From: Escherichia coli
GTDB taxonomy: Bacteria; Pseudomonadota; Gammaproteobacteria; Enterobacterales; Enterobacteriaceae
Reading direction: 5' to 3' (one strand)
Length of the DNA: 64,000 nt
Assembly: GCF_030013205.1 (NCBI RefSeq)
Contig: NZ_CP122648.1
Position 1 is the stretch's first letter. Every line of letters begins with the position of its first letter. Made by a program: the position numbers. This document shows, in pieces, positions 3,001 through 6,000 of this stretch.

Positions 3001-6000
3001 TTGATGCTGGAATCAGTTATTCGCAAAACGCCATTAAATTTGCCGTAGACACAATGAAATTGAGCCTGCCTGTTATGGGCGGGGCAGACAGGAATCTTAT
3101 TGGATTCAGTAACGGGGTATTTGATACCCGGACAGGAAATTTTCGGGAGCATAACAAAAATGACTGGTTGTTAAATGCCAGTGAATTACCGTTCAGCCCA
3201 CCAGCAGAGGGGGAAACGCTGGCAACACATGCGCCGAATTTCTGGAAGTGGCTGCGTCGTTCGGTGGCAAATAACGATCGTAAAGCGGATCGCGTACTGG
3301 CGGCATTATTCATGGTACTGGCGAACCGGTACGACTGGCAGTTATTCCTTGAGGTAACGGGGCCGGGCGGAAGCGGTAAAAGTGTGATGGCGGAGATTTG
3401 TACCATGCTGGCGGGTAAGGCCAATACAGTATCGGCGAGCATGAAGGCGCTGGAAGACGCGAGGGAACGAGCGTTAGTGGTGGGATATTCTCTGATTATC
3501 ATGCCTGACATGACCCGCTACGCAGGTGATGGTGCTGGGATTAAGGCCATTACAGGCGGTGACAAGGTGGCAATCGACCCGAAACATAAAGCCCCCTACT
3601 CCACACGTATTCCGGCGGTAGTGCTGGCAGTAAACAATAACGCCATGTCATTCAGTGATCGCAGTGGAGGGATCTCGCGTCGTAGGGTGATATTTAATTT
3701 CTCTGAGGTCGTACCGGAGAACGAACGCGATCCCATGCTGGTGGAAAAAATAGAAGGCGAACTGGCGGTAGTGATTCGCCATTTGCTTACACGATTTGCC
3801 GACCAGGACGAAGCGAAAAGACTACTTTATGAGCAGCAAAAATCAGAAGAAGCACTGTTAATAAAGCGTGAAGGTGATTCGCTGGTGGACTTCTGCGGTT
3901 ATCTGATGTCGTTGGTTAAATGTGAGGGGATGATAGTAGGTAATGCAGAAATAGTGCCATTTAGCCCGAGGCGATATCTGTATCATGCTTATTTGGCTTA
4001 TATGTCTGCGCATGGTCTGGGAAAACCGGTATCACTGACACGCTTTGGTACAGATATGCCAGGGGCAATGGCTGAGTACGGAAAGGAGTACAAGCGGGCT
4101 AAATGCACTAAAGGTCCAGATAAAGGGCGAACGATCACAAATGTTCTGTTAGATAAAGATGCTGATGGATGGTTACCAGCAGCGGCAGGCATTAACGACA
4201 GAACATGATACGAAATTTATAAGTTGAAACTTAAAAGTAGACGGTTGGTAGACAGATACACTTAACCCTCTACCAACCATCTACTAATTAATGTTTTGAA
4301 TTATATAGGTATTTTTAATGTGGTAGAGAGGTGGGCAGTTATTTCTATATTCCTAAACCACGGGGGGTATATAAAAAAACAGATAGTTAAGGGTTCATTT
4401 TTTAAATTTCTCTTTTAACTGTCTACACTGTCTACCATTTAGTAAAAATCATTAATTATCAATGTATTAATGCGGTAGACAGTTAGTAGACAGTTTGCAG
4501 ATTGTTTTTTTGTTATGAGTTAATAACATTAAATAAATCAATCAATTATATCGGTAGACAGTTGGTAGACAGTTGTAACGATGGGGCAAAGCATGACTAA
4601 GCTGACCATTAACAGAAAACCGAAAGGCATTTATGGCACGCCGCAGAAAACGACGCAGGCGGCACAGGAGCAGGATAAAACCACGTCGGCGCATAAAGTG
4701 ATGCCCGGTAACCAGAAAGCGCAGCAGAAGCCCACAGGGGCGACACCGTGGCGGCATATGACCAAGCGCCAGCGCAAAAACCGCAGGCGCATTAACCGCC
4801 TCACTGAGTTGTGGCCTGAATTATTCAGCCGGGAAGCACCGAAGCCGCTTAAGGTGGGGATATTCGACGACCTGATGCAGGATCTCGCCGTCAGGGGGCT
4901 GGCATTCGGTCCAGGGGCATTGCGTGCGACGCTGGCATCTTATGCACAGTGTCCGCGCTATTACCGCGCCTTAATGGCTGGTGGGGTACGCTACGACCTG
5001 AAAGGCCAGCCGTGCGGCGAGGTGACACCACAGGAACAACAGGACGCAGAAACGCGGCTGGTGGCGCTGAATGAGAAGCGCAAACGTCAGCGCCGGGTAG
5101 CAAAGGAGAAAACAGGCGCATGATTCACGACAGCAAAGCGGAAGCACTGGAAGCGCGTGGTCTGTACCGGAGAGCGGCGGCGCGGTGGGCTGAGGTCATC
5201 ATGCTGGCGAATGATGACAAGGCACGGGAACAGGCGGCAAAACGTCGCGCGGAATGTATCCGCAAGGCAGCACGCCCACCAGCACGGCAGGATAATTTCG
5301 GGGAGATGCGCGAAACCATCAGCCGGGCACATGCCGGGATGGGATTACATCAGCCCAATGGTAAGGCATTCAGGAAATACCCTGGATCGAAAAATTGCAG
5401 TCAGTGACGGAGGCCGGGATTTTTCCCGGCTTTTTTGTGCCAGTAAAAAGCCCGCAGCCAGAAGTGTTGCGGGCTTTGTTTTTCAGGTGATTGAAGTCAA
5501 TGGGAAGAACGCGATCATCATGCGTTATTGTTTCATAAATTGCAATGATGTAGATCGTCATTTCAGTTTGTGCAATCATAATCGTTGTTTTGTTCAGGAG
5601 ATATGACTATGAGAAAAGCCAGCGTGAAACCTGTTTTACTCGCTCGTGATCAGATTGAAGCATTACAGCGCATCCAGGACGAGGAACGCCGCAATTCTCC
5701 GCTGGGGATTGCTCCGAGCATTCATGAGGTCGCCCGGCGTTTAATGCAGCGGGCGCTTTATCCCGTAGAACGTCCGGCCTGATGGTCGTGATTTTTTGGT
5801 GAAAAAAGAGAGGTGGTAAAAATGCCAGCAAGCAAAGAAGATTTGCGATTAAAACTGATGGAGGTGGTTAACGCTCTGTCAGAGTCGCAGGGCAGCACTC
5901 CGCAGGAGATTATCGAAATTCTGAATGCGATCCCCGCACAGGATTTCATAAAAGAGGATAACGCTAATCAAAACATCGTCGCGTCAGTCGAAGATGAATC

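What the first reader, a model, noticed from the sequence alone, without database searches (positions are those of the whole stretch)
4238..4576. Iteron-like array directly downstream of the primase gene: candidate replication origin of the left island
About eight GTAGACAGTT copies in direct and inverted pairs fill the 370-bp AT-rich gap after the primase/helicase gene. This mirrors the P4 arrangement, where the alpha protein binds repeats in ori/crr next to its own gene, and would allow helper-independent replication of the island after excision.
Basis: partly seen in the sequence, partly recalled or inferred. Interest (0 to 1): 0.5.

Follow-up and report, generated by a model that had tools for sequence, protein, structure and literature searches.

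The report
Replication origin of a phage-satellite island
The repeats are real and most likely form the replication origin of a 14-kb phage-satellite island (a PICI) in E. coli, read by the helicase-initiator gene just upstream; this kind of origin is already known, and here it carries its own repeat sequence.

Summary
Confirmed. The 384-bp, 31% G+C gap after the "primase" gene (window 4209-4592) holds eight GTAGACAGTT copies at one mismatch or fewer, plus four or five degenerate ones. They form six pairs in both orientations around AT-rich spacers, far beyond chance.

The island (tRNA-Gly to attR at 11386-11403, about 14.3 kb) has the gene order of the E. coli satellite EcCICFT073. That satellite's origin lies at the same place, has been tested experimentally, and uses the same GGTAGA(C/T)A core.

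The upstream protein is 49% identical to the helicase and origin-binding part of phage P4 alpha. Its residues 491-592 match the solved P4 origin-binding domain (1KA8).

Natural swaps link array and protein:
- Near-identical islands with other helicase types carry other repeats.
- Across 84 homologues, the last ~40 residues predict the repeat without exception: GGTAGAC in 26, P4-type TGTTCACC in 58.
- DNA homology breaks at about 4090 and resumes at about 4576.

So the last 39 codons and the array move as one unit.

Best reading: the cognate origin of a self-loading helicase-initiator. It is a new member of a known kind (PICI/SaPI origin, related to P4 crr). No replication assay exists for this allele.

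The parts
2403..4208 (+). rep gene ('DNA primase family protein', 601 aa): helicase-initiator related to P4 alpha
   Evidence: Pfam D5_N 156-285, DUF5906 319-427, Pox_D5 490-567. 49% identity to P4 alpha residues 327-769. 44% identity to EcCICFT073 Pri-Rep. Helicase core matches SaPI5 PriRep 7OLA, E 5e-10.
2403..2789 (+). N-terminal ~128-aa domain shared by all rep alleles (P4-alpha-like, DUF927, RepA); Toprim-like fold
3873..4178 (+). origin-binding domain (winged helix), residues 491-592
   Evidence: phmmer hit to 1KA8, the P4 origin-binding domain, E 1.1e-18. Foldseek of the AF2 model hits 1KA8 with E 2.6e-6 (model pLDDT only 64.6).
4091..4208 (+). last 39 codons of rep: predicted beta-hairpin 'wing' with GPDKG insertion; candidate specificity determinant
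   Evidence: This is the only part that differs between the window protein and L030/L032 (26% against 80-100% identity elsewhere). DNA homology breaks at 4090 (L030, L032) or begins at 4100 (L007). The tail type predicts the iteron type in 84 of 84 loci.
4237..4257 (+). iteron pair P1 (GTAGACGGTT, GTAGACAGAT; 11-bp spacing)
   Evidence: conserved in variants that are 90-95% identical
4264..4284 (-). iteron pair P2 (GTAGATGGTT, GTAGAGGGTT on the - strand; 11-bp spacing)
   Evidence: (I6)
4285..4321 (.). AT-rich spacer between the oppositely oriented pairs P2 and P3; least stable duplex in the region
   Evidence: The 40-mer 4280-4319 is 85% A+T with the weakest nearest-neighbour stacking energy.
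4322..4340 (+). iteron pair P3 (GGTAGAGAG + GTGGGCAGTT; degenerate here, GTAGACAGTT in relatives)
4417..4435 (-). iteron pair P4 (GTAGACAGTG, GTAGACAGTT on the - strand; 9-bp spacing)
   Evidence: (D6)
4436..4474 (.). AT-rich spacer between the oppositely oriented pairs P4 and P5; holds an IHF-like match at 4457-4469
   Evidence: About 80% A+T; WATCAANNNNTTR match.
4475..4506 (+). iteron pair P5 (two exact GTAGACAGTT copies, 11-bp spacing) plus a degenerate third unit GCAGATTGTT
4507..4553 (.). AT-rich spacer (82-85% A+T); candidate unwinding region; IHF-like match at 4536-4548
   Evidence: 24% G+C in 4450-4549
4554..4574 (+). iteron pair P6 (two exact GTAGACAGTT copies, 11-bp spacing); right edge of the exchangeable cassette
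   Evidence: Homology with islands carrying other rep alleles resumes at 4576-4577, directly after this pair.
4593..5123 (+). ProQ/FinO-family gene, first gene of the conserved downstream module (not part of the origin)
   Evidence: conserved at 97% next to three different rep-ori cassettes
11386..11403 (+). attR: 18-bp repeat of the 3' end of tRNA-Gly, marking the right end of the ~14.3-kb island
   Evidence: the tRNA-Gly and integrase lie just left of the window

Best explanation
The array is the cognate replication origin (ori) of a ~14.3-kb phage-inducible chromosomal island (PICI) inserted at tRNA-Gly. The gene just upstream encodes a self-loading SF3 helicase-initiator related to P4 alpha and to PICI/SaPI Pri-Rep. 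The rest of this mechanism is inferred from those relatives. Its C-terminal winged-helix domain binds the 9-11-bp GGTAGACAG(TT) units. Pairs in opposite orientation flank AT-rich spacers (4285-4321, 4436-4474, 4507-4553). There, hexamers would assemble, melt the DNA and start theta-type replication of the excised island once the island's operon is switched on by a helper phage. The last ~39 codons of rep (the predicted wing) and the array form one linked specificity unit (window 4091-4576). Shown here: the repeats, their non-random nature, the homologies, the synteny with a tested PICI origin, and the protein-iteron co-variation. Inferred: binding, melting, the exact unwinding site and the need for a helper.
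For: 1. The repeats are non-random and sit in a 31% G+C gap directly after rep.
2. Island gene order: int, AlpA-like HTH, ant, icd-like, DUF4222, rep, gap, ProQ/FinO, PerC, all on one strand, about 14.3 kb between tRNA-Gly and attR. EcCICFT073 shares int, the AlpA-like HTH, icd-like, DUF4222, rep, the gap and PerC in the same order.
3. In EcCICFT073 the gap after pri-rep was shown to act as ori in a plasmid assay that depends on both rep and ori (PMC6092414). That gap holds about 12 GGTAGA(C/T)A units, the same core as here. Its Pri-Rep is 44% identical to the window protein over the full length.
4. Residues 146-592 are 49% identical to the P4 alpha helicase plus origin-binding region. Residues 491-592 match PDB 1KA8, 'Phage P4 origin-binding domain'. 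The helicase core matches SaPI5 PriRep 7OLA. SaPI Reps bind iterons placed directly after rep through a C-terminal winged helix, with an AT-rich centre (PMC9371898).
5. Natural swaps: islands 94-97% identical in the flanks carry a DUF927 helicase with at least 12 GGTTGTCTCA repeats, or a RepA helicase with other repeats. Homology ends at ~2790 and resumes at 4576-4577, just after the last iteron.
6. Among 84 P4-alpha-like homologues with 73-100% identity, the GPDKG-type tail goes with 4-9 GGTAGAC and no TGTTCAC (one locus has 1) in 26 loci. The P4-like tail goes with 4-9 TGTTCAC and no GGTAGAC in 58 loci.
7. L030-32 are 88-89% identical overall but carry the other tail and the other array. L034-36 are only 79-81% identical but keep the tail and the GGTAGAC units in otherwise unalignable DNA.
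8. The wing-coding segment and the array occur in almost the same number of E. coli genomes (106 and 104) and are adjacent where checked.
9. A related element exists as a 10.8-kb circular record.
Against: No replication, binding or footprint data exist for this allele; everything is comparative. There is no obvious single central AT-rich block as drawn for SaPIs; instead three AT-rich spacers are present, so the unwinding site is not pinned down. The protein lacks a recognisable primase catalytic domain (no DxD in the Toprim-like N-terminus), so priming may need the host DnaG. The C-terminal model has low confidence (pLDDT 64.6), so the 'wing' assignment rests mainly on the 1KA8 alignment. In ETEC1732 (L007) the same array sits as an orphan behind a different rep allele, so an array can persist without its full-length partner. 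The last pair ends only 18 bp before the next gene's start codon, so an additional regulatory role is not excluded.
Confidence: 0.85

Rival explanations
1. The array is a crr-like cis-acting enhancer or copy-control (handcuffing) site for Rep, as crr is in P4, while initiation itself occurs elsewhere in the island.
For: Its position directly after the alpha-like gene is exactly that of P4 crr, which also carries direct and inverted short repeats in two repeated blocks. The window array also shows an internal 79-bp direct repeat, 4458-4495 and 4537-4574 (D2).
Against: The 14.3-kb island holds only one GGTAGAC cluster, and complete PICI-type relatives hold one TGTTCAC cluster, whereas P4 has two. 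The EcCICFT073 rep-plus-downstream-gap fragment alone sufficed for plasmid maintenance (PMC6092414).
Confidence: 0.06
2. The repeats are operator sites of a transcription factor, or autoregulatory sites of Rep, that control the downstream ProQ/FinO-PerC operon, and not an origin.
For: The last pair ends 18 bp before the ProQ/FinO start codon, and one promoter-like match (4324-4351) overlaps P3.
Against: Promoter-like matches are at the chance level (2 found, 2.1 expected). The ProQ/FinO-PerC module is 97% conserved next to three unrelated repeat arrays, and the array is exchanged with rep, not with the downstream genes. The array type tracks the Rep C-terminal tail.
Confidence: 0.05
3. The array is a packaging (cos/pac), partition or integrase arm-type site.
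For: Short repeats in both orientations also occur at attP arms (P4 annotation) and at centromere-like sites (general knowledge).
Against: It lies about 7 kb from int and the att ends. No partition genes are annotated in the island. It switches with the rep allele while int and the flanks stay the same.
Confidence: 0.02
4. The repeats are a chance or compositional artefact of an AT-rich intergenic region.
For: None beyond the low G+C content.
Against: None of 2000 composition-matched shuffles reach the observed count. The units are retained in relatives whose spacers are unalignable.
Confidence: 0.01

Closest known systems
Replication origin of Gram-negative PICIs, type example EcCICFT073 (Fillol-Salom et al. 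2018, PMC6092414)
   Same: Same island layout (int, AlpA-like, icd-like, DUF4222, rep, gap, PerC), transcribed in one direction. The ori lies directly 3' of rep. Iteron sets in both orientations lie around AT-rich DNA. The core is the same, GGTAGA(C/T)A. Rep is homologous over its full length at 44%.
   Different: The unit is longer (GGTAGACAGTT, mostly in 11-bp tandem pairs) compared with the 9-bp GGTAGAYA units. The C-terminal domain is only ~36% identical and carries a GPDKG insertion. The attachment site differs (tRNA-Gly), as do the downstream genes (ProQ/FinO in place of SSB). This allele is untested.
Phage P4 alpha protein with its crr and ori (NC_001609; PDB 1KA8)
   Same: The protein is 49% identical over the helicase and origin-binding domain. 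A cluster of short repeats in direct and inverted orientation lies directly after the gene, as crr does. Sister alleles (58 loci) even use the exact P4 type-1 repeat TGTTCACC.
   Different: The iteron sequence differs (GGTAGACAG). There is one cluster, not the two-part ori plus crr. P4's zinc-finger/Toprim primase region is replaced by a 128-aa Toprim-like domain. None of the P4 products sid, psu, delta, epsilon or cI appears in the island's annotation.
SaPI / Gram-positive PICI Rep-ori (self-loading SF3 helicases; PMC9371898)
   Same: An SF3 helicase with a C-terminal winged helix. Iterons lie directly after the rep ORF, on both sides of AT-rich DNA and in opposite directions. The helicase core is detectably homologous (7OLA, E 5e-10).
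   Different: SaPI iterons are 5-6 nt and number 6-12. Here the units are 9-11 bp in six pairs with three AT-rich spacers. Sequence similarity is limited to the ATPase core.
Iteron-type plasmid origins (the RepA, pi and TrfA class)
   Same: Repeated initiator-binding sites next to an AT-rich region and close to the initiator gene.
   Different: From general knowledge, those iterons are about 17-22 bp, the initiators are not helicases, and DnaA boxes are usual. Here there is no DnaA box or GATC, and the initiator is itself a helicase.

Membership tests
PICI (Gram-negative) Pri-Rep/ori module | ori lies immediately 3' of the replication initiator gene | tested here: met
   The array at 4237-4574 starts 29 bp after the rep stop codon at 4208.
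PICI (Gram-negative) Pri-Rep/ori module | sets of iterons flank AT-rich DNA, with iterons in opposite directions on the two sides | tested here: met
   P2(-)/P3(+) flank 4285-4321 (85% A+T) and P4(-)/P5(+) flank 4436-4474 (80% A+T). The layout has three AT-rich spacers, not one.
PICI (Gram-negative) Pri-Rep/ori module | island context: integrase, AlpA-type regulator, one-directional transcription, specific att site, ~10-15 kb | tested here: met
   int, AlpA/Vis-like HTH (phrog_66/2790), all genes on the + strand, tRNA-Gly attL and an 18-bp attR, ~14.3 kb. The gene order is shared with EcCICFT073.
PICI (Gram-negative) Pri-Rep/ori module | Rep homologous to a PICI Pri-Rep | tested here: met
   44% identity over the full length to EcCICFT073 Pri-Rep; the helicase core matches SaPI5 PriRep 7OLA.
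PICI (Gram-negative) Pri-Rep/ori module | initiator-iteron specificity (cognate pairs) | tested here: met
   The tail type predicts the iteron type in 84 of 84 loci, and the cassette boundaries lie at 4090 and 4576. This is comparative evidence, not biochemical.
PICI (Gram-negative) Pri-Rep/ori module | rep- and ori-dependent autonomous replication; induction and packaging by a helper phage | not testable with these tools
   Shown only for EcCICFT073 in the literature.
P4-like satellite replication system | alpha protein with an N-terminal zinc-finger/Toprim primase, an SF3 helicase and a C-terminal origin-binding domain | tested here: inconclusive
   The helicase and origin-binding domain are present (49% identity; 1KA8). 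The P4 N-terminal ~326 residues are absent and replaced by a 128-aa Toprim-like fold without DxD.
P4-like satellite replication system | type-1 repeats TGTTCACC | tested here: not met
   The window array has no TGTTCAC. Sister alleles with a P4-like tail do have it.
P4-like satellite replication system | two-part cis system: ori and crr several kb apart | tested here: not met
   One GGTAGAC cluster in the island, against two TGTTCAC clusters in P4.
P4-like satellite replication system | P4 gene set (sid, psu, delta, epsilon, cI) | tested here: not met
   None appears in the island annotation or in the PHROG hits for the genes searched. No dedicated search against these proteins was run.
Iteron plasmid origins (RepA/pi/TrfA class) | 17-22-bp iterons, DnaA boxes, non-helicase Rep | tested here: not met
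   The units are 9-11 bp, there is no DnaA box, and the initiator is an SF3 helicase.

The most novel reading that the evidence does not exclude
The last ~39 codons of rep (the wing of the winged-helix origin-binding domain) and the adjoining iteron array (window 4091-4576) form a minimal specificity cassette that can be exchanged by recombination. Two crossovers would then switch a satellite between origin specificities, GGTAGACAG and P4-type TGTTCACC, without touching the helicase. Satellites could in this way escape, or gain, cross-activation by co-resident P4-like elements and PICIs. A ~40-residue segment would also become a readable code for initiator-origin recognition.
Probability: 0.5. 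Interest if true: 0.5.

Novelty: new member of a known kind. Interest (0 to 1): 0.3.

Why it matters
It identifies the island as a replication-competent phage satellite in a pig enterotoxigenic E. coli, and it pins down the cis site and the protein that would amplify the island after induction. The natural swaps go beyond this one island. Helicase plus origin is replaced as one block, and separately only the last 39 codons plus the array are replaced. These give a ready-made experiment for how P4-alpha/PICI initiators read their origins. They also bear on whether co-resident satellites can fire each other's origins. The general principle, an origin directly after rep with cognate iterons, is already established for SaPIs, for E. 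coli PICIs and for P4.

Tried and rejected
- A full-text search for the string GTAGACAGTT returned 29 papers; none of the 20 listed was about an origin or a satellite, to judge by titles and abstracts. A later search on PICI origins found nothing newer on E. coli PICI ori.
- Rfam found no RNA family in window 1-12000, so a structured RNA in the gap is not supported.
- The promoter and terminator scan of 4100-4700 was at chance level for promoters, and the two terminator-like hits are on the minus strand outside the array.
- No DnaA box and no GATC were found; two IHF-consensus matches were not followed up.
- A second repeat cluster that would mimic P4's ori plus crr was sought and not found.
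- I considered filing the island as P4-like and rejected it on three unmet features: repeat sequence, two-part cis system and gene set.
- The structure model of the C-terminal domain was only moderately confident (pLDDT 64.6). The 'wing' assignment is therefore given as inference.
- The plasmid collection holds no copy of this exact rep-ori allele. It holds only related alleles, one on a 10.8-kb circular PICI-like record.
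Full report
**Observation.** The sequence between the stop codon of the 601-aa 'primase' ORF (2403-4208) and the next annotated gene (ProQ/FinO family, 4593-5123) is 384 bp with 31% G+C, against 44-63% in the flanks. GTAGACAGTT with at most one mismatch occurs eight times between 4237 and 4574. The whole 64-kb window has 14 matches against 2.56 expected, and no shuffle reached 14. Inside the gap the commonest 8-mer occurs 7 times, and none of 2000 dinucleotide-preserving shuffles of the gap itself reached that.

Reading the sequence and its relatives adds degenerate copies, giving 12-13 units in six pairs:
- P1 4237-4257 (+)
- P2 4264-4284 (-)
- P3 4322-4340 (+)
- P4 4417-4435 (-)
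- P5 4475-4495 (+), with a weak third unit
- P6 4554-4574 (+)

Spacing within pairs is mostly 11 bp. The oppositely oriented pairs P2/P3 and P4/P5 each flank a 37-39-bp spacer of 80-85% A+T. A third AT-rich spacer lies between P5 and P6.

**Context.** The window is from the chromosome of E. coli ETEC4079. The array lies in an island that starts at a tRNA-Gly gene just left of the window. It ends at an 18-bp repeat of the tRNA 3' end at 11386-11403, so it is about 14.3 kb. All of its genes are on one strand, in this order:
- integrase
- a hypothetical gene
- an AlpA/Vis-like HTH
- ant
- icd-like
- two small genes including DUF4222
- rep
- the gap
- ProQ/FinO
- PerC
- NUDIX
- DUF2213
- a 679-aa lytic-transglycosylase protein
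- a small terS/Cox-like protein

This is the layout described for Gram-negative phage-inducible chromosomal islands (PICIs). [quoted passage not shown] A rep-ori fragment of EcCICFT073 maintained a conditional plasmid only when both rep and ori were intact (PMC6092414).

I fetched EcCICFT073 from the CFT073 genome. It has the same order: int, HTH, icd-like, DUF4222, rep, a 288-bp gap, then PerC. Its Pri-Rep is 44% identical to the window protein over the full length. Its tested ori gap holds about a dozen GGTAGA(C/T)A units in both orientations, which is the same core as the window's GGTAGACAG.

**The protein.**
- Pfam finds D5_N, DUF5906 (the P-loop helicase core) and Pox_D5.
- Residues 146-592 are 49% identical to residues 327-769 of P4 alpha, that is its helicase and origin-binding parts.
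- Residues 491-592 match the solved P4 origin-binding domain 1KA8 by sequence (E 1e-18).
- They also match it by fold, though the model has only pLDDT 64.6.
- The ATPase core also matches the SaPI5 PriRep structure 7OLA.

For SaPI Reps the literature describes a self-loading SF3 helicase. Its C-terminal winged helix binds iterons placed right after the rep ORF, half on each side of an AT-rich centre and pointing in opposite directions (PMC9371898).

**Natural experiments that tie the array to the protein.**

1. *Other helicase types carry other repeats.* Islands whose flanks are 94-97% identical to the window carry other helicase types behind the same N-terminal domain. STEC346 has a DUF927 helicase followed by at least 12 GGTTGTCTCA repeats in two inverted sets around AT-rich DNA. 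TUM1881 has a RepA-type helicase followed by different short repeats. DNA homology with the window stops at ~2781-2791 and resumes at 4576-4577, immediately after the last iteron. The ProQ/FinO-PerC module stays 97% identical throughout. The array therefore belongs to the rep cassette, not to the downstream genes.

2. *The tail predicts the repeat.* I analysed the stretch after the stop codon in the P4-alpha-like homologues from IMG/VR and GenBank; 84 passed the length filters and carried one of the two tail types.
   - 26 proteins end in ...KCTKG(P/Q)DKGRTI(T/S)NVLL...GWLPAA. They have 4-9 GGTAGAC and no TGTTCAC (one locus has one).
   - 58 proteins end in the P4-like ...KRKTKHG(L/I)RSNVTL...DWMPSC. 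They have 4-9 TGTTCAC, the P4 type-1 repeat, and no GGTAGAC.

   Overall similarity does not predict the repeat. L030-32 are 88-89% identical to the window protein but differ in the last ~40 residues (26% identity there against 80-100% elsewhere) and carry TGTTCACC. L034-36 are only 79-81% identical but keep the tail and keep GGTAGAC pairs within spacers that no longer align.

3. *Breakpoints at the DNA level.* Homology with L030/L032 ends at 4090. In ETEC1732 an orphan copy of the tail plus array starts at 4100, behind a RepA fragment and a different rep allele that has its own GGGTAGAYA array.

4. *Occurrence in E. coli genomes.* In 5426 complete genomes the wing-coding segment occurs in 106 and the array in 104, and they are adjacent where checked.

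The last 39 codons and the array thus behave as one linked unit. In the model and in the 1KA8 alignment this segment is the beta-hairpin after the third helix, and the 5-residue GPDKG insertion lies in its loop. That it is the specificity-determining wing is an inference.

**Mechanism proposed.** After induction the island's rightward operon expresses Rep. The Rep winged-helix domains bind the iteron pairs. Oppositely oriented pairs position hexamers on either side of an AT-rich spacer, which melts. The helicase loads itself and host enzymes replicate the excised circle. Priming comes either from the N-terminal Toprim-like domain or from host DnaG. The binding, the melting site and helper dependence are inferred from P4, SaPI and EcCICFT073 and are not shown here.

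**Rivals.**
- A P4-crr-like accessory site is unlikely. The island has a single cluster, as do complete PICI-type relatives, whereas P4 has two.
- An operator array for the downstream operon is unlikely. That operon is constant next to three different arrays, and promoter matches are at chance. An added regulatory effect of the last pair, 18 bp from the next start codon, is not excluded.
- Packaging, partition or att functions do not fit the position or the linkage.
- Chance is excluded.

**Comparison and novelty.** The array works like, and passes every computable membership test for, the PICI/SaPI type of origin. It is related to P4 through the initiator. It fails three P4-defining features: repeat sequence, two-part ori/crr and gene set. 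It is a new member of a known kind. This iteron variant and island appear not to have been described, but the principle is established.

Three things may be new to specialists:
- the three-breakpoint mosaic of rep;
- the minimal 'wing plus iterons' exchange unit;
- the exact P4 iteron in many PICI-type elements.

All three are directly testable by wing swaps.

**Verdict.**
- Observation: confirmed.
- Confidence that this is the island's cognate origin: about 0.85.
- Interest: about 0.3.

Noticed in passing
[not shown]
   Followed up: partly
L007 (NZ_CP122823.1, ETEC1732) 1804-2883: Two arrays lie in tandem. A GGGTAGAYA array follows the resident rep allele (55% identical to the window's). Then come a RepA pseudogene fragment, the last ~37 codons of a window-type rep and a window-type array (89.8% identical). 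This is a recombination scar and an orphan origin.
   Followed up: partly
L010 (LR881103.1) 11718-11952; L093 (NZ_CP148328.1) 5554-5781; 58 loci in all: PICI-type and capsid-encoding satellite-like elements carry the exact phage P4 type-1 iteron TGTTCACC after a Rep with a P4-like C-terminal tail. This suggests possible cross-activation between P4 and these elements.
   Followed up: partly
L093 = plasmid record pZ1323HEC0475-3, 10,790 bp circular: A record deposited as an E. coli plasmid is a PICI-like element (int, AlpA, icd-like, DUF4222, rep, protease-capsid fusion). A member of this family was therefore assembled as a free circle.
   Followed up: partly
window 4593-5407: A ProQ/FinO-family RNA-chaperone-like gene and a PerC-family regulator follow the origin directly and are conserved next to all rep alleles. 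The PICI paper states that some PICI-encoded PerC homologues activate the LEE pathogenicity island.
   Followed up: no
window 4458-4495 and 4537-4574: A 38-nt direct repeat (84% identical, 79 bp apart) joins an IHF-consensus match (4457, 4536) to an iteron pair. This is reminiscent of the repeated blocks of P4 crr.
   Followed up: no
window ~12,100-26,050: A second, degraded phage-like element lies to the right of the island. It has a serine recombinase, a major capsid protein, an IS3 insertion, a baseplate protein and a tyrosine integrase on the minus strand.
   Followed up: no
window ~28,500-48,000: This is the ETT2 type III secretion island (sctC, sctN, sctV-type genes, ygeH), with frameshifted genes and IS2 and IS1 insertions.
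   Followed up: no
NZ_CP122722.1 (ETEC1747): This genome holds three places matching the same origin array. Several islands with one origin type can therefore coexist, which bears on any incompatibility idea.
   Followed up: no
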